A stretch of 64,000 nt of DNA from Tubiluchus corallicola (lineage: Eukaryota > Animalia > Priapulida), in assembly GCA_030141605.1 (NCBI GenBank), contig JAQGDQ010000733.1, positions 41,737 through 105,736 of the forward strand. Direction: 5' to 3'. The first letter of the stretch is position 1. Every line of letters begins with the position of its first letter. The notes below the pieces were generated by a model, which saw only the letters and a program-made list of their open reading frames with translations, ran no database searches and was not told the DNA's origin. The position numbers and the translations under genes are program-made. Below, in pieces: positions 17,644 through 58,618 of this stretch.

Positions 17644-17738
<95 letters not shown>

Positions 17739-31486: not shown

Positions 31487-31541
<55 letters not shown>

Positions 31542-36608: not shown

Positions 36609-36669
36609 ATGTGATGGCATTACTCTGGATCAACAGCTCAATGTTTAAAGTAAAGTTTTTGCATTTCAG

Positions 36670-36849: not shown

Positions 36850-36936
36850 GTAAATTGGCTATCTTTTTTTGTTGATCAACTACAGTTTAGGTTGTAAACA
36901 TAGATTCAAATACCACGTGTGCATAGGGAGAAATTG

Positions 36937-36937
<1 letters not shown>

Positions 36938-36972
<35 letters not shown>

Positions 36973-37038
36973 GCGTGTGTGTGTGCGTGTGCGTGTGCGT
37001 GCGCGTGCGTGCGTGCGTGTGGGAGAGGGAGAGGGAGA
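36938..37038. repeat. (GT)n/(GCGT)n microsatellite
   Basis: Direct inspection. Confidence 0.9.
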
Positions 37039-37864
37039 GAATTACATTGACTAAATGCATGAGGAAACTGTCCTGATTGTGCATACTTTCTGCAAGCTGG
37101 GGGGGGGGGAGGGTGTTGGTCAGAAATTTAGAGCACACAAAAATCGAAGCCTATGACAAAAGTTGTTATGCCACTGCAATAAGTCTTCTCACAGTTTTGT
37201 TGTGCGCACGCGCAGTTGCTATAGATCAAAGGTTAAGTGTACCACAGCAACGCATCTTAACTACAACCGTCACGTGACGTATGGATAAAACAAAGTCAGT
37301 TTAGTAACTTCAGTTGTTTTACGTGAACTTTACTTAATTATGCATTAGTCTGTGCATAAAGTGATTTACTAGCAGGATCGTGTTTGAGAACAGGGTAAAA
37401 CAAAGCCGTTTGCAGCATCAGTTCAGTAAGTTTGGTTATTTTACGTGGACTTTACTTAATTAGCCTGTGCATAAAGTGATTTACTAGCAGGATCTTGCAT
37501 GAGAACAAGAAAAATGAACTCGGTAAGGTTCTAACTAGTTGTTAAAACTGTTATTATTACAGTAGCTTGGGCTCCGAGGCATTGTCAAGCATACACAAAT
37601 GTGTTGTCTGATACACTTAACCTTTGACCTTTCCACGATAATCATTCATCGCTGGAACTGTGAAAAGACTTATTAATATCGAACGTAAACCAGTGTCAAC
37701 GTGAGTGGGATTTAGTTTATATTGTGCGTTTGACAGCATTAAAATTCAGTAAGTTTGTTTTTGTATTAGCTTATTCCTTTAATCGTAAAATGTCAGTAAA
37801 AAAGTGAAGTCCCGGCACACGATTTGAATCCAGGCACTTCTGATCAGCACTGTCCTTTACCATT

Positions 37865-38617
37865 GGATATATAAGAGTAAATAAGAGGATATATAAGTGT
37901 TAATATAAGAGTAAAGAAGAGGATATATAAGTGTTAATATAAGAGTAAATAAGAGGATATATAAGTGTTAATATAAGAGGATATATAAGTGTTAATATAA
38001 GAGTAAATAAGTGGATATATAAGAGTATATATAAGAGTATGTATAAGAGGATATATAAATGTTAATATAAGAGTAAATAAGAGGATATATAAGAGTATAT
38101 ATAAATGTTAATATAAGAATAAATAAGAGTATATATAAGAGGATATATAAATGTTAATATAAGAGTAAATAAGAGGATATATAAGAGTATATATAAATGT
38201 TAATATAAGAGTAAATAAGAGTATATATAAGAGGATATATAAATGTTAATATAAGAGTAAATAAGAGGATATATAAGAGTATATATAAGAGGGTACATAA
38301 GTGTTAATATAAGAGTAAATAAGGAGATATATAAGAGTAAATAAGAGGATATATAAGAGTATATATAAGAGGATACATAAGTGTTAATATAAGAGTAAAT
38401 AAGAGGATATATAAGAGTATATATAAGAGGGTATATAAATGTTAATATAAGAGTAAATAAGAGGATATATAAGAGTATATATAAGAGGGTATATAAATGT
38501 TAATATAAGAGTAAATAAGGAGATATATAAGAGTAAATAAGAGGATATATAAGGGTAAATAAGAGGATATATAAGAGTATATATAAGAGGATACATAAGT
38601 GTTAATATAAGAGTAAA
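37865..38617. repeat. Compound AT-rich tandem repeat of ATAAGAG-based 12-mers
   Basis: Shuffled modules ataagaggatat / ataagagtaa / ataa(a/g)tgttaat. Confidence 0.9.
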
Positions 38618-39114
38618 CCTCGAACGCAACTTAGAAAATAATGACATTCGAAACATTTGCAGAAAGAGAGACACTAATGTAATTAAAATGTATATAGGTA
38701 TTGTAAAAGAACTAACCCAAAATGATCTTATAGTAAATTGATTATACATTGATTATAAATATTGGATATATATTTAGAATAAGTAAATCGTAATGCAAAA
38801 TTGTCAGGTTGTTTAGTAAGAAATTTATTTAATGTACATAGTGTAATTTATGTACTTTTTTGTACTTTTGTGCTTTTCTGTACTTTTGTGCCCTGCAAAT
38901 AGAGGGCTTATTGTATAATTTTCAATAAAGATTTTTAATTAATTAATTAATCTGATCAGCAGGCTTTAGGTGTGACTGCTGGACAGAAGGTCCTGAGTTC
39001 GATTCTGGGTATTTCAGATCTTTTGTGTCAGTCTGTAAGTAAATGCAAAATCTGTTAATTATTGAGTATTCTGCATAGGAGAGATTATTATTTAATAAAA
39101 TTTCGTTGTTTCAG

Positions 39115-39231
39115 ACGACGTTACCTGGATGCAGAGTCAGCGGGGGCGTATCGAACTTATCATTCGCGTTTCGTGGAATGGAGGTGGTGCGCGAAGCCAT
39201 GCACAGTGTGTTTCTCTATCATGCGATAAAG
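39115..39231 (+). CDS. MTR: MTR exon 15 ([21 protein letters not shown]...HAIK)
   Basis: 117 nt; donor AAG|gtgaag. Confidence 0.95.
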
Positions 39232-39265
39232 GTGAAGCCAAGTACAAATTTTTGTAATTTTTATT

Positions 39266-40425
39266 TTTTACACGTCAAATGTAGACACAGGAAAGTTCAA
39301 ATATGACTTAGGTAAGTCAAATGTAGACATGGGAAAGTTCAAATGTGACTTAGGTAAGTCAAATGTGGACACAGGAAAGTTCAAATGTGACTTAGGTAAG
39401 TCAAATGTAGACACAGGAAAGTTCAAATGTGACTTAGGAAAGTCAAGTGTAGATACAGGAATGTTCAAATGCGACTTAGGTAAGTCAAATGTAGATGCAA
39501 TTAACGTTAAGAATGTAGTGGAATTGGTTCCCACTTCCCAATGAACAGTGAATCACTAATTAGTTTTTTAAGTAATGCATTAGTACTGCATTAATGAATT
39601 AGTTTTTCTCAAGAAACATAGTTTATTTTAAGAATGTATTGTTTTCTCTAACAATTCCAGTGGTATGCAAAGTTTGCAGAATATTAGTGAACTATTAGTA
39701 GACCTATAAAGTTGTTATTTTAACTTAAGAGCAATTATTAAATTGAAAATAAAGAAGATTAAATTTAACATCGTTAAACTTTAACACCTATCCACATTTG
39801 AGATACCAATGTCACACTTGACTTGACATGTGTCTACATTTGAGTTACCAAAAACGCTTAAGATTTCTTGAAAACCATTGTTAACACATTTGAACTACCT
39901 AAGTCTACATTTGAGTTACCAAGACACATTTGAATTACCTAAGTCTACATTTGAGTTACCAAGACACATTTGAACCACCTAAGTCTACATTTGAGTTACC
40001 AAGACACATTTGAACCACCTAAGTCTACATTTGAGTTACCAAGACACATTTGAACCACCTAAGTCTACATTGCAGCTACCAAGACACATTTGAACCACCT
40101 AAGTCTACATTTGAGCTACCAAGACACATTTGAACTACCTAAGTCTACATTTGAGTTACCAAGACACATTTGAACTACCTAAGTCTACATTTGAGTTACC
40201 AAGACACATTTGAACTACCTAAATCTACATTTGAGTTACCAAGACACATTTGAATTACCTAAGTCTACATTTGAGTTACCAAGACACATTTGAACTACCT
40301 AAGTCTACATTTGAGTTACCAGGACACATTTGAACTACCTAAGTCTACATTTGAGTTACCAAGACACATTTGAATTACCTAAATCTACATTTGAGATAAT
40401 ACAGGTCTACATTTGACATGTAAAA
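39266..40425. mobile_element. Foldback-like element with repeat-built arms (42-bp units left, 40-bp units right, inverted)
   Basis: Terminal IR TTTTACACGTCAAATGTAGAC / GTCTACATTTGACATGTAAAA; subunit TCAAATGTAGAC repeated in opposite orientations. Confidence 0.75.
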
Positions 40426-40634
40426 CCTATATTTTTTTTAATTAGCGCTGTCTTCCATGCAAGGAATCATTGAGCGCTTTTTGGAGAATTACTTTTCTTT
40501 TTCACCATCATTTTTTTCTTGGTATTTAAATTAATTTATTACAAATGTTTAAAATCTGTTTTGAATTTTCTGTTTTCTTTCGGCTTCCTGGTAATTTTTA
40601 CGGCAGTTTTGCAAATTTTGCAAACATTTTACAG

Positions 40635-40775
40635 GCTGGAATGGACATGGGTATAGTGAACGCTGGAAACTTGCCGGTCTACAGCGACATTGAACCCAAA
40701 CTGCTGGACCTGTGTGAAAAATTAGTGTGGAACCGAGATCCGACGGCAACGGAGAAGCTCCTAGAGTACGCACAG
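40635..40775 (+). CDS. MTR: MTR exon 16 ([11 protein letters not shown]...EKLLEYAQ)
   Basis: 141 nt; donor CAG|gtaagg. Confidence 0.95.
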
Positions 40776-41062
40776 GTAAGGCAACTTCACTTTTGTTGTA
40801 TTTGGAATGCGAGTAACACGCATTTGAATGAGTTTTTGTATCTGTCATCAGTGTGAGCTGGGATGGAGTACGCACAGGTAAGGCGACTTCACTTTTGTTG
40901 TATTTGGAATGCGAGTAACACGCATTTGAATGAGTTTTTGTTTCTGTCATCAGTGTGAGCTGGGATGGAGTACGCACAGGTAAGGCAACTTCACTTTTGT
41001 TGTATTTGGAATGCGAGTAACACGCATTTGAATGAGTTTTTGTTTCTGTCATCAGTGTGAGC
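40764..41062 (+). repeat. 102-bp tandem triplication spanning the exon 16 donor
   Basis: GAGTACGCACAG|GTAAGG at 40764, 40866 and 40968. Confidence 0.95.
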
Positions 41063-41195
41063 AAGGATGTTAAATTTCAGTTTGTCGATAATTACACTTC
41101 CAATTAAGTCTCGGTTTGGGCGAAATTTATTTCATAGCTAAAATCTTGGATGATTTTCGGTAGCATTTTACAGAGGTTTTACTAGTATTTATCCC

Positions 41196-41384
41196 ATCTA
41201 TGGCCATATCACGTTGAAAACACCGGTTCTCGTCTGATCACCGAAGTTAAGCAACGTAGAGCCTGGTTAGTACTTGGATGGGCGACCGCCTAGGAATACC
41301 AGGTGCTGTTGGCTTGCGGGATGCCCACACTGTATCTCGACACTAGGCAGAGGAGCTGCACAAGGCAGCCAATGGCTAGAGGGC
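41196..41384 (+). mobile_element. 5S-derived SINE3, 3'-truncated copy
   Basis: 5S-like 41196-41315 plus ~70 nt of the same body as the 32.9 kb copy. Confidence 0.85.
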
Positions 41385-41951
41385 TACTACACAAACAAAA
41401 ATGTTTCTGGTAAACAGGAAATGTTTATATTATGCTCAAAACAGGCACTTTGCATAAACAAACCTAATTTCAAAGTATTAACTTTTAAACTCTGTGATAT
41501 GTTAGTGAAAAATTTGATGATTCTACACAAAATAATGCAACGTGTGCAAGTTTAAGACTATCAACACCAGTGACTCAGGAAAGCCAGTTTCTATTTAAAA
41601 GAAAGATACAGAACATTTTACCATCATTTGGAGAAATATTTAAAAGCAGCTCAGTACTGGCAGCATTCTTCTGTGGCACTTTGTCGTGAAGTTTGGATGA
41701 AAGTTTTTTGCCTTATTACTAAATATTTTATAGCAAGTGTTGCTAAGTGTGAATTACTATTAGAACTATTATTGCTTGGTCTTAGTTACTTACAACAAAC
41801 TAGACAATTCTTAGTGATCTATATATCTGCTTTTATTCTATACGACAAACTGTGAATTAATCTTAGCTTGGTTCAAGTTGAGAAACGTGGCTGGACCATT
41901 TCAGAAGAGTCAACTTTGAATTTGTTGCTGTTCCAATAATTGCTCCCACAG

Positions 41952-42531
41952 ATGAAGTCGCCAATCAAAGTTGGATTTTATCTGATCTCTCTGATCACGG
42001 TGTGTAGTGGATTGAGCGCATGTGGTGATCCGTCTTGGCAGTGCGAATGCAATGAGTTTTTCGGTAATTGGACAGAAATGCTTTGCAATTGGCAAAATTT
42101 GTCCCTATCAGACATACAGAATATTTCAAATACATTACCAAAAAATATCTACACGCTCAAGATTTACAACTATTCAAGCAGTGAATTTCCAGACAAATTT
42201 TTGGCAGGAAAACAGATCGTGTCTTTGTACATAGAGCACTCCAAGAAGCTGAAGCGCATCAATGAAACCAGTATAGCAGCTGACACCTGGAAATTATACT
42301 TGCGTGACCTCGCTGCTTTAGAGACAATTGACTCTATGGCATTCCAAGCAATGACAGGACTGGATTTTCTCGAAATTTGGAGATGCTCCCAGCTGACATC
42401 GATTACTGGGCACTTGTCTTTTACACAAAATCCATATCTGGATAGAATTGACATTGGACAGACATCTATGGAAACACTTAAGGAGCCAAGATTACACAGT
42501 AGCGTACAAATGATTGATTTATACTTGCGGG
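41952..42531 (+). CDS. Nested LRR protein, coding exon 1 (signal peptide, LRRNT, about 5 LRRs)
   Basis: MKSPIKVGFYLISLITVCSGLSA signal-like peptide; Cys cap CGDPSWQCEC...MLC; LxxLxL/IxxxxLxxI repeats; donor CGG G|gtgagt. Confidence 0.85.
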
Positions 42532-42762
42532 GTGAGTTAAATTCAAATTTTTGACTAACAACTTTCAGCAGAGCACGAAGCCAGTGTGGTCAATTGAATA
42601 CATTTATGTGTCATAAGATTTAATGAACACAGTGTCCTTACAATAGGTGAGCAAGTTTGTCTTATGCGATGCTTTAGGTAAAACTTCTTTCACTATTCTT
42701 ATAAGTTTTGTACTTTAATCGTTGTTTTGCTATTGTTGTTATCATTGTTGCCATTTTTATAG

Positions 42763-42989
42763 GAAATAATTTCACGTGCGACTGTGACATCAGTTGGGTT
42801 TTCAACAAACCGTGGGAGCTAGCAAGAGATTTTCAATGCCGACAATCAGAAAATGGAAATTACAAAACAGCTACAAAAGCAGACTTTGACTATTGTTACG
42901 ATGCAACAAACCAAACCACTGAACCGTCTACAACGAGCGTCTTTGCATTAGTATTTTTAGTTTTAGCAAGTCACCTTTTTTACCTGTAA
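42763..42989 (+). CDS. Nested LRR protein, coding exon 2 (LRRCT, Thr-rich stalk, hydrophobic C-terminus)
   Basis: tttttatag| acceptor; phase-1 join gives LYLRGNNFTCDCDISW (LRRCT signature); ends VFALVFLVLASHLFYL*; 807 nt total = 268 aa; ATTAAA at 43015 and AATAAA at ~43704. Confidence 0.85.
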
Positions 42990-44604
42990 AAATGCCAGCA
43001 ATACAGCTATTCTCATTAAAAAGACATTAGCACCGCCACAGTCATTCAGCAAAAGCGCTGCGTGGCTAAAAAGCAGCTACGTTAGAAAGTGATAGTTACG
43101 AATCAATATCCTCAATTTAAAGTAATAATTTCGCCTCATCACAACATAGTGAAAGATTCATCCCAGACTGTAAAAGTTCTGACAGTCTTTCCTGCATGCG
43201 ATTCATTCCTTTTTAAACAAACAAGGTGCTTTGTTTTGAGAGGGGAGATTTTCTGTGTTAAAAAGTCTTGAAGTTGAAAAAGGAAGTTAATTTTTGAAAG
43301 TCAACAAAATTCAAGCTAACAAAGAACTGAGGGAAACCCTCATTAATTGTTATTAGTGTTCTTTTATCCACTGACCAGTGGCCAACCATAAATGCCAGTA
43401 ACTCTATTGCTAAGTGTGTTGTTATAGATAAGAATAGGTAGAAAAACAATTACACTAGTTAGAGATGTAAGTCTTTGTGAAGCAATAAGATGGATCACGT
43501 CAGCGATTAGAAAATTAAGAAGTTGAAGTGATGCTAAACTATTCAGGTTGGTGATTGTGTGTAAAGCAGATAGATGACCGTTTTATATTTATAACATAAT
43601 AATATGCCATAATAATATAATATGTATACACATTCATTATGTGTGCACAATAGCCAGCATTGCTGTTAGATGTTGCGTTTGTCAACAGTAATATTATATT
43701 GCCAATAAAATATAATCAAGGAAATGGTTTGTGTCAGCATTTTTCTCTCCAGATTTCCCGACGTTTGTCAGGATAAATTATTGTTACAATAAATTAATAT
43801 TTTATAATGTAAATATAGATTTTGTTTCTTTAATCTATGGAGGAGTTTGCACAGACTGTGTTTGTTTTAAAGTAAATATTTGCTTATATCTTAAAAGCAG
43901 TCAACTAGTAGACATGTTTTAGCCACGAGCATGCAACTGCATATTACACTTAGCTTTCTAAGTTTTTTTTAACGTGACTCTCAATCAATTAATCAATTTA
44001 TTTCACTCCAGCAATACATATACAATACATCAACATACAATATTATTGAAAAAAAGAAACAGTATAGGTAAAAAATATTGATGAAGTCAAATTAACCAAA
44101 TAAAAGAGTTGCTGTGTGACACCTTGAAAGCTTGGCTTGTTAGGATGGCACGAATGAATGAATGAATGAATGAATGAAATAATGGTTAGGGTTAGTAGCC
44201 GTGATGGAATGGAAAAAATAGTAAGATTAGAGATAGGAAAAAGAAAGAGAAAGGAGGATAAGTGAATGAAAGAATCGCTAGGGTTTGTAAACATGATGGA
44301 ATGGAAAAAACAGTAAGATTAGAGATAGGACGGAAGGGAGGGGAGGAAACGAGAGCAGTGTATGTTTAAATTACATAGAGCTATATTAAAATTGCATATT
44401 ATAAATAATTATATACTATTTTGATGCATTTAATGGGTAACAACTTGAACATAAAACAAAACTTACATGTATGTTAGTTGTTAAAATCATAATAATAAGC
44501 TTAGAGAAGGTTAAACTGTTAAAAGGTTACGTAAACGAGTTTTATTTTACTGTTATTAAAGCCAGGTGTATGATTCTTAGGCATCCAGTATAGCTAACTA
44601 TATA

Positions 44605-45370
44605 CCGTATATACTCGCATATAAGCCGACCCCCTAAAACTGCTTTAAAATGGCCAGTTTTTGCAAAAACCCGTATATAAGCCGACCATCAACTTTTAGC
44701 TTGAAGTCAGCAGTATAGGACATACGTTTTCTTTTTTCTCCAGGCATGGTGTATTGCACAAATAATTTTACAACTAAAATTATCAAAATTCAGCACACTT
44801 TTAAATTCTGTGGCCGCGTGCTCACGTTTGCCTCATTGGTTTGCTGTTCCTCTATAAGCCACGTGACCCTCGTCTCCCCACGCGCTGCCTACCAATTGGC
44901 TGATGACGTCGGCTTGGTTACGGCTCGCAACTGGTGACACACAGTGGTGTATTGCTAAATAAAAAGTAGGTGGACGGCTAGTCTCAAGACTTACCATTTT
45001 ACATTCACAAATTTTAAAGAAATTGACATTATTTAAAACCGTTTTTTGAAAAAAGTAGATTTAATATTAAACCCGTATACATTTTTAATATTTTTTATCT
45101 AATGAATACAAAAAGCAGACATTTATTGAAATGTGAATTTTTTCTAAAAAAAAGTGGGTGGACGGCGATCCCCCACGATCCCCCTCCAATACACCACTGG
45201 CGACACACAACCAAATAAAGAGTCAGATAGCGATGAAAATGTGTGGCTGGAAAATTGGCATTAGTGTCTGTCCTTGTGTTCATTTTGTTTCATGCGCATA
45301 TAAGTCGACCCCCTGATTTCAGTATTGTATTTTATAGTTCTAAATTCGGCTTATATGCAAGTATATACGG
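44605..45370. mobile_element. Tc1/mariner-like MITE containing a nested hAT-like MITE (44942-45199)
   Basis: TA|CCGTATATACTCGCATATAAGCCGA TIR; inner CAGTGGTGTATTG TIR with TSD GTGACACA/GCGACACA. Confidence 0.88.
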
Positions 45371-46163
45371 TATATATATATATTCATATATCACACATGA
45401 ATACATATAAAGGTTATGTACACGAATTTTATTTTGCTGTTATTAAAGCCGGGTATATGATTCTTAGGCATCAAGTATAGCTAACTATATATATATATAT
45501 TCATATATCACGTATAAATACATATAAAGGTTATATAAACGAGTTTTATTTTGCTGTTATTAAAGCCGGGTATATGATTCCTAAGCATCCAGTATAGCTA
45601 ACTACATATATATACATTCATATATCACACATAAATTCCTATAAAAAGCTTAAAGATTTGAGTTCACGGTCATTAAAAATCTGGACGGTGTTTGTCGATC
45701 GAGTTCATGAAAATGATAAGTTGCTTTAACTTTTGAATCGATGAATAACTTAAATAGCAAATGCTTCAAACATTCTCTGATTCTCTCACATTCTCTTGTA
45801 TACTTGTATTTTCAGATACACTATAATTTTTCCAGATTTTCACGTTTACTGTAAACATTTCGCGTTCCTTCATACTTTTGTGTTGTAGAATTCTCGCACA
45901 ATAAACTAGTTTAATTTGATGAAGTGTTTTCTGGTTTTCTCTACGAGCCTTCCGAGAGAAACAAAACACAACAGTTACTATTATGTAAAGTTATAGAGAG
46001 TGAAAAAACTAACCTTTTGTTGAGTCATCTTCATCGATACGATAAGTTGCTCTTTCGTTACCCTTTCATATTGCAGTTGCTCATGTTCCTCTGCAATTTC
46101 CCCATAGTTTCTCCGTTCTCCCGTCTTTCCTCCATTTTTTCTCTAATATCTTTTTATTTCTAG

Positions 46164-46256
46164 GCATTGCAGAAAGGCGGGGAAGCCAAAGAGTTGACGG
46201 TAGAGAGTTGGAGAGACGGCACGGTGGAGGAGCGCTTAGAGCACTCTCTGGTTAAG
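46164..46256 (+). CDS. MTR: MTR exon 17 (ALQKGG...WRDGTVEERLEHSLVK)
   Basis: AG/GT boundaries, 93 nt; start of the cap domain. Confidence 0.92.
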
Positions 46257-46377
46257 GTAATTCATTGCAAGAAGATTATTAGACAAGGGATAACAGATCG
46301 GAACTCTAACTATACTATAGTAATATCACAACTTTGAGATAACGTAGGCAAAACTGTCTGTCGTACACTGTTACAGT

Positions 46378-46592
46378 GATTACGATTGTGATGACGACGA
46401 CGATAATAATGATGATGATGACAATGACCACAATAATGAAGATGACAATGATGATGATGACAATGATGAGGATGACGCTGACGATGATGATGATGAAAAT
46501 GATTACGATGGTGATGATGATGGCGATGATGATGACGATGACGATGAGGATAATGATGACGATGATGTTGATGATGATGATGATGACGGTGA
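46378..46592. repeat. (GAT/GAC)n microsatellite
   Basis: Direct inspection. Confidence 0.95.
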
Positions 46593-46749
46593 CGGGGGCA
46601 GTGGCTTACATTACATATTCGCACATATTACATATTATAACAGTGCATAACAGTCAAGAACTAGAAACAAATCAGATCTGATTTAGATTTGAAGCCAGTG
46701 TGTTCAGTACATAAACTGGCTTCACCATTGGAAACTTTTTACATTGCAG

Positions 46750-46848
46750 GGCATTGATAAATATGTCATCGAAGATGTAGAGGAGGCTAGATCGAACAAG
46801 AGCAAATATCAGCGAACGCTACACGTCATCGAGGGCCCTCTTATGAAG
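46750..46848 (+). CDS. MTR: MTR exon 18 ([14 protein letters not shown]...VIEGPLMK)
   Basis: AG/GT boundaries, 99 nt. Confidence 0.94.
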
Positions 46849-46924
46849 GTACATAAATGCAAATGCTCGTTTATTTCATTTTTATTTCATTTTTATTTCA
46901 TTTTTTAAATCTTTATCTTGTTAA

Positions 46925-47383
46925 CCCTTTCAGTCCCAAATTATTTTTTTAATAAGAAAAAATTTTTTGGTTTGGTACTTTGTTCAGTATGTCCATCTTG
47001 TTTTGCACATAATAAATATTTTTTTCTACCTGTGCCCGCGTGCTAAATATAGCCTGTATCCCACGGGATACATTGGGATTCAATGGAAGCATAAAATGGG
47101 CTTCATTTTGGAACTGCTGATGATTTTTTAAAGTATTTAAGACATTTAGTATGCATGCTATGCTGATCTGCACAAAGTCGTCTCTAAAGTACTGTACCTT
47201 GCACAGTTTTTTATGCTATGTAGATTTTCTAGTTTGCCATTTTATCACCATTTTTAGTCTCTTGTTATTGGCTTAAATCAAAATAACTATTAACAGATCA
47301 AATAACTGTCAGGTTTAAAATTTTATTAATTTTAAAGCAGAAAATATTCTCGTATCCCACGGGATACAACGGGTATGAAAGGG
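46925..47383. mobile_element. piggyBac-like MITE
   Basis: TTAA|CCCTTTCA...TGAAAGGG|TTAA; internal GTATCCCACGGGATAC hairpins. Confidence 0.88.
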
Positions 47384-48290
47384 TTAAGAAGAATGTTTTT
47401 ATCTACTGCTGAATACTGCTTAACTGCAGTCGCTGTGTGAGTACTCGTGACCACTCGGCTGTTTAGGTTTTATTAATATTCTAATTCTTCCACTTCAATT
47501 GCATTATTTTATGAGGTGGCACAAAAAATGTGCTAAAGTGCTTTGATCGCAATATTGTAAGAAGAAAATTGTGTTATCACTTGAAAGCAAGTTCTGTGGA
47601 AGTACACATTGCAAAATGCCTCCAGTTTGCTTAGAAGTTCCGTCATTCTGATGTTGTGTTTAACTGTGTTTATCTAGAAATTAGTCCTTCAATCAATTAT
47701 GATCAAATTTAAAGTGGTTACTTTGCTTTAATCTACAGGATTACGCCTTAAAATGTGAAAGTAATTAACATTAATTGTGTAAATAGTTAATTTACAGATT
47801 TTTGTTGACTGTTAGATATGCATGTAAACTTAGTAAGTGCCGTAGTAAGTGCCGGGCTGGTTACTTAGTTTATAGAGTTCGCTCTGTAAGTAAAAAAAAG
47901 ATTCTGAAGCACCTGGCGGGATAAGTGTTTATATTGCACGGAAACCGGGTGATGCCATTTTTCATCTGAAACGACCGCGCCCAATCGTAAAGCGATCCCG
48001 ACTTTAAATTGATTTTACTAATTACACGAGATGCTTATCACAATTTGATTGTTGAAACTATTTAACGTTTTTTCTCAAATCTTAAAATGAACTCAACTTC
48101 CCGAGAGATTTGGGGCTCGACTTCCCGAGAGATTTGGGGCTCAACTTCCTGAGAGACTTTGCTTTTGCTTTAAAATGCATAATTTCAAAATGAGGCAGGA
48201 TAGGCAGTTTTCCTTTAAATTTCCGGAAGACTGTTTTTCTATTTATACTATATCTACATTAGTTTTACTATTAGTTACTTGTACTTTTAC

Positions 48291-48657
48291 TAGGGGTGAG
48301 CATCGAACGTTCGAGTTCGAACGAGTTTTTTTAGTTCGAACTCGATTCGAATCCAAAACTATAGATTCGAATAATTCAGCACTTCAATCGCACATGTTAT
48401 CATTAAAACGATTGAAACATCATGCAATTAGCATAATTTAGCTGTGATTTCTGCGCACAATTTTAAAGAAATTACTAGTCGTTTTATTGCAGAACAAAAT
48501 CTAGTGATTGGCATGATCTTTGTAAGACTAATTTTTACTGGTGGTTCGAAAACTTGTTCGAAAATCTTTCGATCTCAATTCGAATTCGGTTCGAATTCGA
48601 AACACTGAAGTTCGGTTCGATTCGAATTCGCTTTCTGGTAGAGAATGCTCACCCCTA
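48291..48657. mobile_element. hAT-like MITE rich in TTCGAA motifs
   Basis: TIR TAGGGGTGAGCAT; 8-bp TSD ACTTTTAC. Confidence 0.92.
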
Positions 48658-48679
48658 ACTTTTACACATGTTTCTTCAG

Positions 48680-48871
48680 GGGATGAGCGTCGTTGGCGAC
48701 CTCTTCGGGGCTGGAAAGATGTTTCTGCCCCAGGTCATCAAATCTGCCCGCGTCATGAAGAAGGGCGTCGGCTACCTGATTCCGTTCATGGAGGAAGAGA
48801 AGAAGGAACTACTGGAGAAGAATAGGACTACAGCGGACGTCAACGGACCATGCGTTGAGAATGCGGTTAAC
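48680..48871 (+). CDS. MTR: MTR exon 19 ([28 protein letters not shown]...)
   Basis: Conserved GKMFLPQV; the 3' end is ambiguous (AAC|gtaatt at 48871 or GCG|gttaac at 48865, both phase 0). Confidence 0.9.
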
Positions 48872-49489
48872 GTAATTGACTTTTTCTAGTGCGAGTTGTG
48901 CGGAATGTCTGGTGCGTAATTGCGCAGCTAAGGGACTTTTCTCGCCAAGTAACTTGCAAGTGTGTTCAGACTAGAGAGCAAAACTCGCTGCGAGTTACTC
49001 TCTGGCATTTAGCGTGAACTGAACTCACTCCCATCCTTTCCTATACTTTTCCCTCTAGCAATATTCCACTTAAGAAACGATTATAATGTGTTTCCAGGTT
49101 AATTAATTAGACATGCCGGGTTATGTTCAAGTAAGGTCGGGTTTTTGGTTAGGGCAGCTAGGTGGTATAAAATTAAGTCAAATAGGGGTTACTTTACGCC
49201 GAATCTTCTTCAATCTCGTGAAAATGTTTTTAAAAGTTCCCGTTTTCTTTTATTTAAATTTCGTTGATATCCTGTTAAGCAAGTGGCTGTTGCCTTGATG
49301 TGATTTTGGTGATTGGAAACTTGTCTAGCCTTCTGTCGCTTTGTATTCATGTTGCTAGGAGCACCTTCTCTTTTTTGTCATTGTTCCAGTTGGTTTACGT
49401 TGATGTTCTGTGTGTGTGTGGTCTGTATTACGTATGTGTTATGTCTGTAGATGTCATTTTAACATCTAAGGTTGGGCAGTCAATGTGAC

Positions 49490-50640
49490 TGGGTCCCCTC
49501 AGGGAGGGTTTGAAGGTAGTGAGTAGGGACCGGGTCCCCGCCGGGAGAGTTTGAGAGATAGTGAGTAAGGACCGGGTCCCCGCCGGGAGAGTTTGAAGAT
49601 AGTGAGTAGGGACTGGGTCTCCGCCGGGAGAGTTTGAAGATAGTGAGTAAGGACCGGGTCCCCGCCTTGAGAGTTTGTAGATAGTGAGTAGGAACCGGGT
49701 CCCCGCCGGGAGAGTTTGTAGATAGTGAGTAGGAACCGGGTCCCCGCCGGGAGAGTTTGAAGATAGTGAGTAGGAACCGGATCCCCGCCGGGAGAGTTTG
49801 AAGCTAGTGAGTAAGGACCGGGTCCCCGCCTGGAGAGTTTGAAGATAGTGAGTAGGGACCGGGTCTCCGCCGGGAGAGTTTGAAGATAGTGAGTAAGGAC
49901 CGGGTCCCCGCCTGGAGAGTTTGAAGATAGTGAGTAGGGACCGGGTCCCCGCCAAGAGAGTTTGAAGATAGTGAGTAGGGACCGGGTCCCCGCCGGGAGA
50001 GTTTGTAGATAGTGAGTAGGAACCGGGTCCCCGCCAAGAGAGTTTGAAGCTAGTGAGTATGGACCGGGTCCCCGCCGGGAGAGTTTGTAGATAGTGAGTA
50101 GGAACCGGGTCCCCGCCGGGAGAGTTTGAAGATAGTGAGTAGGGACCGGGTCTCCGCCGGGAGAGTTTGAAGATAGTGAGTAAGGACCGGGTCCCCGCCG
50201 GGAGAGTTTGTAGATAGTGAGTAGGAACCGGGTCCCCGCCTGGAGAGTTTGAAGATAGTGAGTAGGGACCGGGTCCCCGCCGGGAGAGTTTGAAGATAGT
50301 GAGTAGGGACCGGGTCCCCGCCTGGAGAGTTTGAAGATAGTGAGTAAGGACCGGGTCCCCCCCGGGAGAGTTTGTAGATAGTGAGTAGGAACCGGGTCCC
50401 CGCCTTGAGAGTTTGTAGATAGTGAGTAGGAACCGGGTCCCCGCCGGAAGAGTTTGTAGATAGTGAGTAGGAACCGGGTCCCCGCCGGGAGAGTTTGTAG
50501 ATAGTGAGAAGGAACCGAGTCCCCGCCGGGAGAGTTTGAAGATAGTGAGTAGGAACCGGGTCCCCGCCGGGAGAGTTTGTAGATAGTGAGTAGGGACCGG
50601 GTCCCCGCCGGGAGAGTTTGAAGATAGTGAGTAGGGACCG
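49490..50640. repeat. 41-bp GC-rich satellite, about 28 copies
   Basis: Unit gatagtgagtagggaccgggtccccgccgggagagtttgaa. Confidence 0.97.
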
Positions 50641-51307
50641 AAATCTAAATCTTTCCTGGTACCTCACCTGATGACTCTTTTCTTTTGGTGGTAATTTTGT
50701 TTGTGTGCCTTTGCAGTTGTTTGTGTCTTTTTGTTGTTTGTTGATGTTGACATTATTTGAGTTTAATTTGATAAAGTGAGGCAAACTTCGTATAAGCTTG
50801 ACTCAACGGCAGCAAAACAAACATGGCTGCTGCACCACTAGAGCAGTTTAAATTACATCTTGACAACTTGACTAATCCTGTAAGAATTTAAATTAAAAGT
50901 CACTTTGATGCCATTCGTAAACTACAATGTAAAAAATCCTTATCAAATATCAAACTTAAGGTAAGCCGAAAGCGCGCAATCTTTAATTCTAATGAACCCA
51001 ATATCTCACCTGTGCATCTGCAATCAAAGTGATTTTCATCACGCGAGAAGGATATTTTTGAAGATCGTGTGATCTTTGTTTTGCAACTATTAACTCTTTC
51101 GGTTTTTCGGTTTCACTGGCAAGAGATCGCAGTGAGGCAGTGAGAGAAATTTGTGCAGTGAGGCAGCAATGATTTGTTACTTATCATTGAAGAACAAGGT
51201 TTCACGGTCATCTCATTGCTTTGAAACTTTGAATTTTCTATTTGAATTTTGTAGTTTTTTGGCATTTTTTATATTAATATTTACTGCACAACATGTAGCA
51301 TCCCTAA

Positions 51308-51430
<123 letters not shown>

Positions 51431-51506
51431 TAATGGCTGCGCAGGTTTTTGCTTTTTGCATTGTCGTCAAAAACACATCAATTTTATGAGCGTGTTAGTT
51501 AGCAAA

Positions 51507-51775
51507 TGAGGAAAGAGAGAGAAAGAAAAAAAGAGAGAGATAGAAGAGGGAGGGAGAGAAAGAAAGGGAGGAGAGAGAGAGAGAGACAGGAGAGGGAGGG
51601 AGAGAAAGAAAGGGAGGACAGAGAGAGAGACAGGAGAGGGAGGGAGAGAGAGAAAGAAAGGGAGGAGAGAGAGAGCGAGAAGAGAGAAGAGAGAGAGAGA
51701 ATGAGTGAGAGGGAGAGAGGGGAAAAAGAGACAGCAAAGAAAGAGAGAGAAAGAAAAAGAGAGAGAGAGATGAGA

Positions 51776-51813
<38 letters not shown>

Positions 51814-51886
51814 GGGGGGGAGAGAATGGCAGAGAGAGAGAGAGAGGGGGGGGAGAGAATGGCAGAAAGAGAGAGGGGGGGAGAGA

Positions 51887-51939
<53 letters not shown>

Positions 51940-51955
51940 TGAGAGAGAGGGAGAA
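51507..51955. repeat. (GA)n-rich microsatellite
   Basis: Direct inspection. Confidence 0.95.
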
Positions 51956-52056
51956 GCATATTAACCAATAGGCATACTAGGCTTATAGCCTAGGACTCCA
52001 AAGTTTGACGGCGTTACGTTTTAGAGAAAATTCTTATTCTCCTCAGAAAATGTGTA

Positions 52057-52683
52057 CAGTGTTCCCTCACTCTTCGCGGGTGTTCCGTTCCAGGCCCACC
52101 CGTGATAAGTGAATTTCCGCATGTACTTTCCGAAGTAGGGATGGTATACTTATTTTAGTAGTTATACATTATTTTAAGTCTTTATAAACCCTCCCCACAC
52201 TCTTATACATAACCCTTTCCCATTCCCTTAATAACTTTTCTCATACTGTACATGTACCTTTTAAAAAACTTTACTTAAATCTTCATAAAAATGTTTTAAA
52301 CTCTTACAATCTCACGTCGGCAAGTAGCATCTCAAGCGGGCGCAAATCCTACATTTTGTTTTTGGTGTGTATTCATCCGCCGAATAAATACACTATTTAC
52401 TGTAAATGGTAATTTTTTACGGTTTATAATATTCTTTTAATGTTAGAATTAATATTTTTAATGTATTTTTATACATTTTGTGATTTTTTATGCAAAATTC
52501 ATCAAATCTATACATTACTGTACAATACGTACTATTCATGTGCAGAAATACTTTAGACGGAGTACCGCAAAAACCTGCGAAACAGCGAAAATACCGCGAT
52601 AAATATTTTACATTAATATTTTTTTAAACCCGCGAAACAGCGAGTCCGCGATAAACGAACCGCGAAGTAGCGAGGGAACACTG
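52057..52683 (-). mobile_element. pogo/Tigger-like MITE family D, copy 2, nested in a family E element
   Basis: TA TSD; CAGTGTTCCCTC TIR; reverse-complement match to 29668-30159. Confidence 0.9.
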
Positions 52684-52911
52684 TATACTTTCATATTCAT
52701 GTATAGAGCACATTTTATAACACACCACAGGCAGTTAATAGCGTTTCTAATACACCACAGATAATTGTTTAATCTGCCTATTACATAATCAACCATAAAT
52801 TCACAATAGAGATGGGTGGGACAACTATCAGCAGAGGGTGCCGTAAAGTCTTGACACGCCCCTGGGTGTCAGCGTTCATTAAGTTTGCTAAGTAAATACT
52901 TTCTTTTGCAG

Positions 52912-52979
52912 AATTGTTGATCTTGGCGTCATGACACCCTGTGAGAAAATTCTCAAAGCAGCGATAACCGAGCAGGCGG
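52912..52979 (+). CDS. MTR: MTR exon 21 (IVDLGVMTPCEKILKAAITEQA)
   Basis: AG/GT boundaries, 68 nt. Confidence 0.94.
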
Positions 52980-53050
52980 GTGAGTTGTTAAGACAATATT
53001 TTGCAGCCAGATGGCGCACCACGAGCTGATATTCAGCACACACCTGTAGG

Positions 53051-53664
53051 TAGGGATGAGAATTTTCCGCGGATTCTCGGAATTCCGAGTTTTTGGAAGA
53101 CCTGTAGTGCCATTTTTGAAAACTGCGTAAATTCGTTGAGAAAATTTTTCCGGGTTGAACCTCGTTTTCGTCGAAATCGTAATCGAAACTTTCAGCAGCA
53201 TTTTTTCGAGGTTTTTATCCAGCTTACCTTTTATCTCTTAGATGTTAAAAATCGCTGAAAAATTTTGGCTAAAATAGTTCAAATGAAGCGTAAATATCGC
53301 TTATCTGATAATCTGTACGATTTGTAGCATGCCTTTTACGGCAATGCGGCATATCTTCGTTGCAGACAAATGTGAAGCTTTGAGGCCTCCAGACACAAAG
53401 CGTAATTCGAATCAAACCAAGTTTAATTTTATAATTTATGAAATATAGGCAACAAAATATATGCAAATTTGCTAATTTTTTGAAGCTTCACGATCATATG
53501 TATCATGTATCCTAGATATTGTGTATTTTAAATTATGCATGAAACAAGGTAATTGATATTTTAAGTCTACTTAGAGGCTCTCTATGGTCACAAAATTGCA
53601 ATTTGTTGCTTTCCTCAACCCTCTGGCCTGTTTCAGAGTTTTTTGCAATTTGTCATCATCCCTG
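53051..53664 (+). mobile_element. hAT-like MITE family A, copy with a variant interior
   Basis: 8-bp TSD CCTGTAGG; TAGGGATGA...TCATCCCTG. Confidence 0.9.
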
Positions 53665-53899
53665 CCTGTAGGGTGTACTAAGTGCAGAAGGTTGTGGGTT
53701 TAAGCAGTGGCAGCTCATGTATAGGCACTGTGCAGCCCCATTTTCACTCGAGCTTATCGATAACATTCAATATAATGAATCTTTTTTGTTTAATTCTTTC
53801 TTTATGCTTGTAAATCCTTGTACGGAACGAGAGCAAGTGATTGGAACTGTTTGCTTCATGGTTCCAGGGACATAGTGTTTGGCTGTTGTGCACATGCGG

Positions 53900-54170
53900 C
53901 TAGAGTTACCACATTGTCTGAGTTGAAAAAGAGGACACTGTGTAATTAGGCCAAAATGACCAGTCTAGGTTCGCAGTATTGTTTCAGATGTTCGGTTCGA
54001 ATACGCCAAGTATCGACAGCGGTGTGAGTCATGTGACCCATAGTGATGTGTGCATCGTTTACTTTTGTTCAGTAAAAACGTACACAAAGCTTTTACAAGG
54101 GTTGCATTTTGAGATGTTAGCAACATCTTGTATTGAAAATTAACGAGCTTTTCTTTGTCTCGTACTGTCG
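53900..54170 (+). mobile_element. Truncated family F element abutting the 42-bp array
   Basis: Matches 23289-23370 and ~23770-23943; homology stops at actgtcgt. Confidence 0.8.
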
Positions 54171-55166
54171 TCACTTTCGGATCTAATCGGCTTGTCCTGA
54201 CTAAACTTGTTATCACTTTCAGATCTAATCGGCTTGTCCTGACTAAACTTGTTGTCACTTTCAGATCTAATCGGCTTGTCCTGACTAAACTTGTTGTCAC
54301 TTTCAGATCTAATCGGCTTGTCCTGACTAAACTTGTTGTCACTTTCAGATCTAATCGGCTTGTCCTGACTAAACTTGTTGTCACTTTCAGATCTAATCGG
54401 CTTGTCTGACTAAACTTGTTGTCACTTTCAGATCTAATCGGCTTGTCTGACTAAACTTGTTGTCACTTTCAGATCTAATCGGCTTGTCCTGACTAAACTT
54501 GTTGTCACTTTCAGATCTAATCGGCTTGTCCTGACTAAACTTGTTGTCACTTTCAGATATAATCGGCTTGTCCTGACTAAATTTCTTGTCACTTTCAGAT
54601 CTAATCGGTTTGTCCGGACTAAACTTGTTGTCACTTTCAGATCTAATCGGCTTGTCCTGACTAAACTTGTTGTCACTTTCAGATCTAATCGGCTTGTCCT
54701 GACTAAACTTGTTGTCACTTTCAGATCTAATCGGCTTGTCCTGACTAAACTTGTTGTCACTTTCAGATCTAATCGGCTTGTCCTGACTAAACTTGTTGTC
54801 ACTTTCAGATCTAATCGGCTTGTCCTGACTAAACTTGTTGTCACTTTCAGATCTAATCGGCTTGTCCTGACTAAATTTGTTGTCACTTTCAGATCTAATC
54901 GGTTTGTCCTGACTAAACTTGTTGTCACTTTCAGATCTAATCGGCTTGTCCTGACTAAACTTGTTCTCACTTTCAGATCTAATCGGCTTGTCCTGACTAA
55001 ACTTGTTGTCACTTTCAGATCTAATCGGTTTGTCCGGACTAAGTTTGTTCTCACTTTCAGATCTAATCGGCTTGTCCGGACTAAATTTGTTCTCACTTTC
55101 AGATCTAATCTGCTTTTCCTGACTAAACTTGTTCTCACTTTCAGATCTAATCGGTTTGTCCGGACT
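54171..55166 (+). repeat. 42-bp array (about 24 units) of the intron 21/exon 22 acceptor junction
   Basis: Unit aaacttgttgtcactttcag|atctaatcggcttgtcctgact; the last unit runs into the real exon. Confidence 0.97.
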
Positions 55167-55265
55167 CATCACTCCGTCGTTAGATGAAATGGTCCACGTT
55201 GCCCGAGAAATGGAACGAGTCGGATTGAAATTACCTCTTCTCATTGGAGGTGCTACGACGTCAAA
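55145..55265 (+). CDS. MTR: MTR exon 22 ([16 protein letters not shown]...[10 protein letters not shown])
   Basis: SxL and GG motifs of the B12 domain; 121 nt; its acceptor is the last unit of a 42-bp array. Confidence 0.95.
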
Positions 55266-55805
55266 GTATGTTTTTACTTAGTTTATACATTAGCAAAAAA
55301 AATTTTATTTATTATTAGTGAAGCACGAAAATATGTATGTTTATGTATTAGTAGAAAGTAAAAGTAAAAATATGTGGAAACTGAGTTGTTTGAAGGCCGA
55401 GTTTGTGAAAAATTGAGGTTAAAAATCGATCAATTTCGCTTTGATCATAGGGTCCCTTATATGAGAGGTAATTTACCTGGGTTTCTATTACGCGGGACCT
55501 GAAGATATCGTCCCTTATAACCGAAAGTCCCTTATATCTGAGTACCTTATATACGAAGATTTTTACATACGAAAAACGTTACGAAAAATAGGGACCGGTG
55601 TTGGTGGTCCCTTATAAGCAAGTACATTATACCCGAGGTAGACTGTAATTGTAAAAAGTTACGGGGGGGGGGGGGATGCATAGAATGTTCTGGATTCTGT
55701 TATTTTTTTTCCATTTTCTCTCTACAAGCTTGACTGGCTGTGTTTTTTCAAATTTAGTTTACAGTAATTCGGATTAAAGCAGCAGGTGTTTTGTTTTTTT
55801 GGCAG

Positions 55806-55887
55806 GACCCACACGGCCGTAAAGATTGCACCAAGATATAGTCAACCCGTCGTGCACGTCCTGGACGCTTCAAAAAGCGTCGTTGTG
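55806..55887 (+). CDS. MTR: MTR exon 23 ([11 protein letters not shown]...DASKSVVV)
   Basis: AG/GT boundaries, 82 nt. Confidence 0.95.
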
Positions 55888-56351
55888 GTAGGTTTCTGTA
55901 AACTGACGTTTGCGTAAAATTCTCGTTTCAAAGCTTATTTATTGCGGTTGAAATTCATTTTTGAAGCTTCCAGTTTTCCTCAAACACTCGGTCAGAATGT
56001 GTCGGAGAGACATGATTTCCGGAATTTGAGTGCAATTTTGTTTTCCGTTCTGTTTGGTTTCGCCTGGTTGTGAAAACGTGATCTTTCTGCTATCGACAGC
56101 CATTTTCATATCAATGTCTCAAGTTATTTATTTATAACCTTGTGTGTTGTGTTGTCCGTTATAAAAACATAATGGAAATCAGAACTCATAGATGCAGCCA
56201 CTAACCTACATATGCTTCAGAATGAACTTTTGTACTTGAAGGAGAAGAAAAGGGAATTTTAAAGTAGCTCCTAAAAGACTTTCTTTACAAAATTATATTA
56301 CTTGGTGTTACGCTTATCTGCTTGAAAAATTTATGTAATTCGAAAGGAAAA

Positions 56352-56792
56352 TACTGACTACTCATTACTCAATACTCACTACTACTACTTACTACTCTTT
56401 ACTCAATACTCACTACTACTACTTACTACTCGTTAGTCAATACTCACTACTACTACTTACTACTCGTTAGTCAATATTCACTACTACTACTACTGACTAC
56501 TCAGTACTCACTACCCCACTACTACTACCAACTGCTGATTACTCATTACTCACTACTGCTGCTGCTACTGCTGCTGCTGCTGCTGCTACTGCTGCTACTG
56601 CTACGATGATGACGACGACTACTACTACTACTACTACCATTACTGATTACTCAGTACTCACTACTGCTGCTACTACCGCTACCGCTACTACTACTACTTC
56701 TACTACTACTACTGACTACTTAATACTCATTACTACTACCGCTACTACTACTACCACTACTCATTACTCAGTACTCACTACTACCGACTCTC
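56352..56792. repeat. Degenerate (ACT)n/(GCT)n microsatellite
   Basis: Direct inspection. Confidence 0.9.
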
Positions 56793-57163
56793 TACTAAGT
56801 CACTTAATTTCTCTTTCGTTCATCGTAACCCAGGATTTAGTAGGTTATGCTGTTGTCCAAGAAAATGTGCGTGTCTTTTCAGAACTTTGATTACATGGTG
56901 TTTTGTACAAATATTTCATTCTTTTGTTGTTAGAATCTAAGTGATACTAGTGACATTCATTTTTAAGTGAACCGTTTTTTTGTAATTTTTGTAATTTGTA
57001 ATTTTGTAATTATCTTTTAAACAATCGAAAATATTACTGATTATAGTAAAGTACAATTTTCTGTAACAGTGTTGATTTTAATTGTAATTTTTTAAATAAT
57101 TTGATTAATTGTGAACGTATATCGTACGTAGTAGTGAAATATTGGTATGTTTTCATTTCTTAG

Positions 57164-57262
57164 TCGTCTAACTTCATGGACGAGAATCTTAGAGACGAAT
57201 TTGCTGCGGAGATCGCAGAAGAATACGAAGAGATCAGGGAGGAACACTACGAAAATTTGAAG
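57164..57262 (+). CDS. MTR: MTR exon 24 (SSNFMDENLRDEF...EEYEEIREEHYENLK)
   Basis: AG/GT boundaries, 99 nt. Confidence 0.92.
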
Positions 57263-58542
57263 GTTTGAATGCGAAGCCACTCGAGTTTTGTGTTAAAATC
57301 TCAGTGAATCCCTAGACGAAAATGTTTAACTCTTGCTCGTTTGTAAAGATTTTAGCTTTTTTCTTTTAGCATTATCGTGCAAATTCTAAATTGCAAAATT
57401 AACAATTCCTGAATAACTAAGCTCGCACATTATTAAGTTTTCAAAAAAAAATTTTTTTTCTGTGTGGAGAGAAAAATACAGTAAGTCATCGCTTAACGAC
57501 GCGCTAGTGTGTTCCAACAAAGTGCGATATTAAGCGAAACGTTGTTAAACGAAGCCAAGACTTCCATAGAAAGTAATATAAAAAAATTGGTAGTCAAATA
57601 TTCAATATGAATCAATAAGTAGAACTGTGTGTTTTAAAAAAGTATACTTTTGAATTTATTGTTAATTCTCTTATATAAATTAATATTTTAAGATATTTTT
57701 TCTTATTTTAACTGCTCAAAGGAATTTAAGCATTACTTCATTTCTAAAATTCATTAAAACTCTTTGCAGTGCATAGTAAGCTGATGACTCATGCTTCTAT
57801 ATCAGTAATACTACAGCCATCGGTTAATAGGTTCAGTCGGTTAATTGGGTCAAAACACGTCGGTCCCAAAGTGAGTCTATTAAGAGGCACCTATTGTATT
57901 TGAATATCATTCGTGCGCTTGGACACGAAAACCGTCCATAACGCCAGCATAGCTAAAACTACGTTATGATCCTTCGAAGTAGAATGAACCGAAAATTTGG
58001 TCAAATGTTAGTTTTTTGTATTTTGTAAAAACCGACGCTAAACATGTTGGACTTTTATATTCCAGCATCAAATTATCGAGAAAGTGTTCAAAAATGCAAA
58101 AATTTAATTTTACAACTCACTGCCCACTTTTCTGTCTAGAAACTAGTACTGCAATTGCAAAAAACTCCTATTTTCATACAGTAGCTTGGTTGAAGCAGTC
58201 ATTTTGCTTTGGGTTACTTCTGTTGACACGCTCAGGTCTTTGTCAGGAAGAGCCATCTACTGGATTTAAACAAAACTTCAATGTGTTCTTGCAAAGTCCG
58301 TAACAACCAACATTTGTGCGGTTGCTAAGCGTTTTGTTGAAACGCGACAGAAAACAATGGCTGAGTTTAACAGCGATTTTCTTATCTCAAGATTATGTTT
58401 TTCTGTGTGCAGCCTGCACCTCACTGAATAACTAAGAAATCTTTATTGCCGACTTATGCACGATTGTGCTACGCAAGTACACATTTAAAAACTATGTAAA
58501 ATTTCAGTAACAAATATACGTAAGTTTATGATAATTGTATAG

Positions 58543-58618
58543 GATAGGAGATACCTTTCTCTGGAGGTGGCCAGGCAGCGACGAGTGCAGATTGACTGGA
58601 CAGCTGACACTGCACCTG
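58543..58618 (+). CDS. MTR: MTR exon 25 (DRRYLSLEVARQRRVQIDW...P); the gene continues beyond the window
   Basis: AG/GT boundaries, 76 nt; linker before the reactivation domain. Confidence 0.9.

What the first reader, a model, noticed from the sequence alone, without database searches (positions are those of the whole stretch)
54171..55265. A satellite made of MTR's own splice acceptor: 22 decoy 3' splice sites, all leading to a stop codon
Seen: the 42-bp unit is 20 nt of intron end (aaacttgttgtcactttcag) plus the first 22 nt of exon 22 (AT CTA ATC GGC TTG TCC [G/T]GA CT). There are 24 junctions from 54180 to 55144: the first reads GG, 22 are intact ttttcag-type decoys, and the last is the true acceptor. 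Most decoys have TGA where the exon has GGA. The two 41-bp units hit TAA. The three GGA-type decoys read through into a downstream TGA. So every upstream acceptor truncates the protein inside the B12-binding domain. The same T also makes CTGAC, a branch-point consensus about 22 nt before each next AG. Established: the spliceosome usually takes the first AG after a branch point, and premature stops trigger NMD. Inference: the array arose through cctgact (intron)/ccggact (exon) microhomology. The gene must either skip about 1 kb of near-identical acceptors or lose transcripts to NMD, so copy number could act as a length-dependent dial on MTR expression.
Basis: partly seen in the sequence, partly recalled or inferred. 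Interest (0 to 1): 0.8.

Follow-up and report, generated by a model that had tools for sequence, protein, structure and literature searches.

The report
Splice-acceptor "mirage" repeat in methionine synthase
In an animal's methionine synthase gene, the end of one intron and the start of the next exon are repeated head to tail 23 extra times, a repeat type already known from lancelets and some human genes; it is likely a tolerated by-product of a repeat-rich genome that splicing would mostly skip, not a control switch.

Summary
In detail: a 42-bp array (54166-55166) copies the intron 21/exon 22 junction of MTR. It has 24 junctions: one reads GG, 22 are AG decoys, and the last is the true acceptor. 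Every decoy would give a premature stop. The 25 exons in the window give an unbroken 945-aa frame, 70% identical to a full-length homologue. Contigs of one public DNA sample hold the array units. The dial reading is not supported. The stop is one base copied by the repeat. The same gene has a second such array on the donor of exon 16, and 2 among 12 arrays is within chance (P 0.13). The ancestral intron flank is missing, replaced by a mobile-element fragment, so the microhomology origin cannot be seen. This is a known kind: amphioxus "mirages" (PMC3087553), human F7/CBS arrays (PMC1557585) and CBS 844ins68, where the downstream junction copy is used (PMC2630376). Splicing here is inferred, likely to the last AG by exon definition. 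The scan has noted such arrays in at least 6 genomes. One hint remains: the nearest decoys look weakened.

The parts
5571..58618 (+). MTR (B12-dependent methionine synthase), 25 exons modelled in the window; the gene presumably continues past the window's modelled part
   Evidence: tblastn with MetH homologues; joined exons give 945 aa with no stop, 663/943 identical to P0188
52980..55144 (+). intron 21, 2165 nt, of which the last 1 kb is the array
53998..54171 (+). fragment of a high-copy interspersed element that abuts the 5' edge of the array and replaces the ancestral intron flank
   Evidence: 94.8% copy at 23770-23943; in that copy and in loose ends of all four runs the element goes on with other sequence after 54171
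54166..55166 (+). 42-bp minisatellite ('mirage'): 20 nt of intron end plus 22 nt of exon 22, 23.9 copies
54179..54180 (+). first junction, GG instead of AG, behind the element's pyrimidine-rich end
54221..55102 (+). 22 AG decoy acceptors; their use would give exons of 1043 down to 163 nt, each with a premature stop
55019..55144 (+). edge units 21-23, the most diverged (5, 3 and 3 differences from the consensus); 21 and 22 are GGA-type and lack CTGAC; 23 carries two G>T changes
55119..55123 (+). CTGAC branch-point consensus of the true acceptor (A at -23); predicted, not mapped
55145..55265 (+). exon 22, 121 nt, B12-binding domain; true acceptor AG at 55143-55144, donor at 55266
   Evidence: a 266-nt contig of run X1 covers 55137-55402 with no difference
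40764..41069 (+). second, donor-side mirage in the same gene: 102 bp x 3, the last 12 nt of exon 16 plus 90 nt of intron; decoy donors after 40877 and 40979; their use would give a TGA

Best explanation
The array is a 'mirage' minisatellite, a tandem copy of MTR's intron 21/exon 22 junction, that likely arose as one of this genome's many local duplications and is likely tolerated because splicing would mostly pick the last AG. Shown: the repeat anatomy, the stops, the intact reading frame, a second junction array in the same gene, and the element fragment at the 5' edge. Inferred: a first 42-bp duplication was amplified and homogenised, edge units were left more diverged, and a later rearrangement joined a mobile-element fragment to the 5' end. 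Also inferred: with introns of 2165 and 540 nt, exon 22 is recognised across the exon from its own donor at 55266, which favours the nearest acceptor (121-nt exon). Only two decoys would give exons within the gene's 60-223 nt range (163 and 205 nt), and both lack the CTGAC branch consensus. Any rare decoy use would make a premature stop and be cleared by NMD, a side effect and not a design.
For: 14 arrays of period 30 or more cover 20% of the window. 2 of 50 exon boundaries tested have local copies of themselves. Random placement of the 12 arrays inside the gene gives a mean of 0.65 junction-spanning arrays, P(2 or more) = 0.13. Spliced at the last AG, the frame is open for 945 aa and 70% identical to a full-length homologue, GDVHDIG motif included. 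In run X1 the exon-22 contig (depth 175) starts at 55137, the base where a graph of the window's own array branches, and a 114-nt contig resembling units 22-23 has depth 221. This suggests, roughly, that both chromosome copies carry the array's 3' end. The true acceptor has the most pyrimidines in its upstream 40 nt (29; decoys 25-27) and the most open predicted branch region (0.67; decoys 0.17-0.50, 150-nt window). No strong donor lies in the consensus unit (all at or below 0). [quoted passage not shown]
Against: The splicing outcome is inferred, not observed. The true acceptor is not locally stronger: a crude matrix from the gene's other 24 acceptors scores it 0.4, against -0.1 to 5.7 for the decoys and 2.2-13.5 for the other real sites, and junction 20 is identical to it from -28 to +10. 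In human data, upstream 3' sites are preferred overall, and under exon definition that preference is only 'significantly reduced', not shown reversed (PMC9225289 section 9). In human 6-16 and CBS intron 13, two pseudo-sites are used besides the authentic one (PMC1557585 passage), so leak occurs in such arrays. The pyrimidine-tract accessibility of the true site is not higher than that of the decoys (0.51 against 0.49-0.66). Contig depth is no true copy number, and the runs that hold the array are one sample.
Confidence: 0.72

Rival explanations
1. Leaky but unselected: the nearest decoys take a measurable share of splicing, those transcripts are lost to NMD, and the array is a mildly harmful load that may scale with its make-up.
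For: Weak and near-identical acceptors; leak to the two nearest pseudo-sites in human 6-16 and CBS intron 13 (PMC1557585); upstream 3' sites often win in human data (PMC9225289); every decoy gives a stop.
Against: The two nearest decoys lack CTGAC and have the least open predicted branch region (0.17, 0.18); more distant decoys need exons of 247-1043 nt, outside the gene's range; amphioxus mirages give normal mRNA.
Confidence: 0.17
2. Adaptive dial: copy number is maintained to tune MTR level through decoy use and NMD.
For: All decoys lead to stops. One unit pair present once in the window has about twice single-copy depth in X1 (387 against 175), a weak hint that array make-up varies. A CBS VNTR is reported as associated with lower CBS activity (title seen in reference lists only).
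Against: The stop is one copied base; 57% of random 14-codon intron stretches have a stop. Junction arrays occur at a chance rate in this gene. Under exon definition added distant copies would matter little, so length would be a poor dial (inference).
Confidence: 0.04
3. Selection has trimmed the array's edges: the first AG was lost, the two nearest decoys lost their branch point and the last unit gained pyrimidines, because those alleles splice better. This can hold together with the best explanation.
For: First junction is GG behind a long pyrimidine tract. Chance that two of three GGA units sit just before the last unit is 0.011 under random order. Unit 23 has two G>T changes.
Against: The test is post hoc. 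G is the exon's own base, and edge units escape homogenisation without selection (described for BflGb6, PMC3087553). It is one locus.
Confidence: 0.2
4. The array is an assembly artefact, or marks a dead allele or pseudogene.
For: No contig spans the whole array, so its length is unverified.
Against: Units carry distinct variants that recur in X1 contigs (92 nt and 114 nt); a 72-nt contig of X4 (42 + 30, the size of a closed unit) matches with no difference; the reading frame is intact.
Confidence: 0.04

Closest known systems
Amphioxus 'mirage' minisatellites: globin BflGb6 (3' end of an intron plus 5' part of exon 2), BflGb9, Adh3, troponin C, PGBD5 (PMC3087553 passages; PMC3902484 passage; the Adh3 paper itself not read)
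   Same: Tandem copies of an intron/exon boundary in the intron; most units keep the AG; unit size within the Adh3 range (10-72 bp); homogenised core with diverged edge units; both acceptor and donor forms occur, here in one gene.
   Different: More copies than BflGb6 (23 extra against 3-6); another animal group; 5' flank replaced by a mobile-element fragment; splicing and length instability not shown here.
Human CBS 844ins68 (PMC2630376 passages)
   Same: Duplication of an intron-end/exon-start junction; the downstream copy is strongly favoured and normal mRNA is made. The paper's text calls the sites 'donor' sites, but the junction is intron 7/exon 8 and its cited source is titled on 3' splice site selection.
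   Different: One extra copy of 68 bp, not an array.
Human donor-side VNTRs: F7 intron 7 (37 bp), CBS intron 13, 6-16, lamin B2, PDGF (PMC1557585: abstract, Discussion, passages)
   Same: Minisatellite reiterating an authentic splice site; the site nearest the exon is used, with at most the next two leaking. The exon 16 array here is of this form.
   Different: These repeat donors; the exon 22 array repeats an acceptor with its branch consensus.

Membership tests
mirage (splice-junction minisatellite) | Head-to-tail copies of a unit that spans an intron/exon boundary | tested here: met
   20 nt intron + 22 nt exon, 23.9 copies
mirage (splice-junction minisatellite) | The authentic copy is continuous with the real exon; the extra copies lie in the intron | tested here: met
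   Only the last junction gives the open MTR frame
mirage (splice-junction minisatellite) | Many but not all units keep the AG or GT | tested here: met
   22 of 23 extra junctions keep AG
mirage (splice-junction minisatellite) | Homogenised core, edge units more diverged | tested here: met
   12 of 21 units of 42 bp equal the consensus; units 21-23 differ at 5, 3 and 3 places
mirage (splice-junction minisatellite) | Regular splicing is not disturbed | not testable with these tools
   No transcript of this gene was available; inferred from the intact frame
mirage (splice-junction minisatellite) | Length instability between haplotypes | tested here: inconclusive
   One unit pair at about twice single-copy depth in X1; contig depth is no copy number and no contig spans the array
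regulated unproductive splicing (AS-NMD switch) | The stop-bearing site is used in a regulated share of transcripts | not testable with these tools
   Needs RNA with and without NMD block
regulated unproductive splicing (AS-NMD switch) | Conservation of the unproductive element in relatives | tested here: inconclusive
   No relative's intron 21 end was obtained; units 96% alike suggest a young array

The most novel reading that the evidence does not exclude
The array is a splicing rheostat that selection has tuned at its edges: decoys close to exon 22 divert some MTR transcripts to NMD, so the number and order of branch-point-bearing units sets methionine synthase level allele by allele, while the lost first AG and the branchless nearest decoys cap the loss.
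Probability: 0.08. Interest if true: 0.6.

Novelty: new member of a known kind. Interest (0 to 1): 0.2.

Why it matters
As it stands it is one more mirage and changes little. It is a tidy natural test of 3' splice-site choice: 22 near-identical acceptors at 42-nt steps, three lacking the branch consensus and one identical to the true site over 38 nt. A minigene could separate distance to the downstream donor from local site strength. If array length did set MTR level, it would be an acceptor-side VNTR acting through NMD on a core metabolic gene, but nothing here shows that.

Tried and rejected
Sequencing runs: 4 listed, no RNA holder listed; this says nothing on expression. X3, the only other sample, has no cover on the array or exon 22, so it gave no second allele. 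Copy number from summed contig depth: about 3290 single-copy-equivalent letters seen against 5757 expected from a graph of the window's array; rejected as a measure, because the tool's contigs are simplified and I do not know which short ones are laid. Zygosity of the element/array junction could not be read. X1 differs from the window at full depth at 55987-55988; whether it is another animal or an assembly error is open. Taxon: two protein searches with single exons returned mainly bacterial or unnamed MetH proteins, so the animal group is not established here. Remnants of the unit elsewhere in the window: only 9-10 nt chance hits among the top 20 shown. The array as coding sequence: some frames are open across most of it, but Pfam gives only matches with no valid stretch; rejected. 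Local acceptor strength as the way the true site is chosen: not supported by the matrix. Recursive splicing: junctions read AG|AT, not AG|GT; rejected from the sequence. PMC3265369 (passages) concerns exonic duplications that create introns, a different case. PMC5188458 gave only a table row and reference titles. A search for methionine synthase + minisatellite + splice site + intron found 0 papers; that is the only search for this gene's array, and the library lacks most subscription journals. One search listed nothing on acceptor arrays acting through NMD among the 12 of 32 shown (listing only). Earlier scan notes near this place or on look-alike DNA: none.

Full report
Observation. Tandem Repeats Finder reports a 42-bp array at 54166-55166 with 23.9 copies and 96% matches. 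Each unit is 20 nt of intron end plus the first 22 nt of the following exon. There are 24 junctions from 54180 to 55144; the first reads GG, the next 22 read AG, and the last opens the real exon. My first translation took exon 21 one base too long; corrected, splicing from the donor at 52979 to any junction but the last gives a stop. Of the 22 decoys, 17 have TGA at once, 2 (41-bp units) reach TAA and 3 (GGA units) read on to a later TGA.

The gene. The exon after the array matches B12-dependent methionine synthases. tblastn placed most exons, and I set GT/AG boundaries by inspection. After correcting the end of exon 19, the 25 exons from 5571 to 58618 give 945 codons with no stop, 663 of 943 residues identical to P0188, an unnamed 1259-aa homologue. 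Exons are 60-223 nt and introns 379-5388 nt. The stops in the decoys fall inside the B12-binding domain (weak fragment hits). The animal group was not established by my searches; earlier scan notes on this genome say likely priapulid, which I did not test.

Is the array real? I laid 4 of 4 listed runs on the two ends of the array. X1, X2 and X4 are one sample and may be the source animal, so they check the assembly, not the population. In X1 a 266-nt contig covers 55137-55402 with no difference at depth 175. It begins at the same base where a 31-mer graph of the window's own sequence branches because of the array. Contigs of 92 nt (depth 387) and 114 nt (depth 221) carry variants seen in units 10-11 and 22-23, and a 72-nt contig of X4 matches the consensus unit exactly. 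In X2 the unit has depth 88 against 4.8 for one single-copy contig nearby, in line with roughly twenty copies, though the tool warns that depth is no copy number. No contig spans the array, so its length rests on the assembly.

The 5' edge. The DNA at 53998-54171 is part of a high-copy interspersed element. A 94.8% copy lies at 23770-23943, and in that copy and in loose ends of all four runs the element continues with other sequence exactly after 54171. The element's last bases (TGTCGT) resemble the unit's TGTTGT, so a microhomology-guided join is likely. The ancestral intron flank is therefore missing.

How unusual is it in this genome? Fourteen arrays with period 30 or more cover 20% of the window. 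Of 50 exon boundaries tested, 2 have local copies of themselves: this acceptor, and the donor of exon 16, which is repeated in a 102-bp x 3 array at 40764-41069 whose decoys would also give a stop. Placing the 12 arrays that lie inside the gene at random, and rejecting placements wholly inside or across an exon, gives a mean of 0.65 junction-spanning arrays and P(2 or more) = 0.13. No special mechanism is needed. That all decoys end in a stop is one base copied by the repeat; 57% of random 14-codon and 35% of 7-codon stretches of this gene's introns hold an in-frame stop.

How splicing likely copes (inferred). Local strength does not single out the true site. A crude matrix from the other 24 acceptors scores it 0.4, against -0.1 to 5.7 for decoys and 2.2-13.5 for the other real sites, and junction 20 is identical to it from -28 to +10. 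What differs is position and upstream context. The true site gives a 121-nt exon. Only junctions 23 and 22 (163, 205 nt) would give exons in the gene's range, and both lack CTGAC, though they keep a CTAAT at -37; the first decoy with CTGAC gives 247 nt. The true site has the most pyrimidines in its upstream 40 nt (29 against 25-27). It also has the most open predicted branch region (0.67 against 0.17-0.50; junctions 22 and 23 lowest), while its pyrimidine tract is not more open than those of the decoys (with an 80-nt window the branch values are 0.56 against 0.23-0.54). The consensus unit holds no good donor; GGT-type units hold a moderate one (3.7, real donor of exon 22 4.0), which the exon itself also has. 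With flanking introns of 2165 and 540 nt, recognition across the exon should favour the nearest acceptor. Human data support this rule in general (PMC9225289 abstract) but only partly for 3' sites, where the upstream preference is reduced rather than shown reversed (section 9; passages). I therefore put 0.72 on a tolerated array spliced mostly at the last AG, 0.17 on real leak, 0.04 on an adaptive dial and 0.04 on artefact or dead allele.

A residual hint. The first AG is lost, the two nearest decoys lack the branch consensus (0.011 under random order) and the last unit has two G>T changes. This could be selection against decoy use. It is post hoc, G is the exon's own base, and edge units are known to escape homogenisation (PMC3087553), so I give it 0.2, compatible with the main reading.

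What is known. An earlier-findings search gave the lead 'mirage', and I checked it in the papers. [quoted passage not shown] PMC3902484 (one passage) says the same for PGBD5, Adh and troponin C. PMC1557585 (abstract, Discussion, passages) covers donor-side arrays in F7, lamin B2 and PDGF (authentic site only) and in 6-16 and CBS (two pseudo-sites also used). PMC2630376 (passages) describes CBS 844ins68, a duplicated intron 7/exon 8 junction where the downstream copy is used. I did not open supplements of these papers; the BflGb6 alignment is in one and could refine the unit comparison. One search found no paper on an MTR array. The scan has 17 earlier findings with these words in at least 6 genomes, 8 shown; these are unchecked notes and are not counted as support.

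Verdict. Real, correctly described, a new member of a known kind. Four of six listed mirage features are met, one is inconclusive and the splicing outcome could not be tested. Interest 0.2.

Noticed in passing
window 40764-41069: Donor-side mirage of MTR exon 16: 102 bp x 3, two decoy donors identical around the junction to the real one (GTAAGG); their use would add 26 codons and a TGA.
   Followed up: yes
window 53998-54171 and 23730-24100: High-copy interspersed element; a truncated piece abuts the array and a longer copy lies in intron 6. Its end resembles a MITE-type terminal repeat (recalled, not tested).
   Followed up: partly
window 55376-55647: Very high-copy interspersed element in intron 22, summed contig depth thousands of times single copy in X1.
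   Followed up: no
window 59742-64000: 67-bp tandem array of at least 64 copies with strong strand asymmetry (GC skew about 0.38), running to the window's end inside or after MTR intron 25.
   Followed up: no
window 20655-22201, 27284-28575, 33264-33835, 49487-50640 and others: Many young minisatellites with unrelated units (33-132 bp) in MTR introns; the 41-bp unit at 49487 contains GTGAGT, a donor-like word, but is not a copy of an MTR exon boundary.
   Followed up: partly
window 55987-55988: Run X1 differs from the window at two adjacent bases at full depth: another animal or an assembly error.
   Followed up: no
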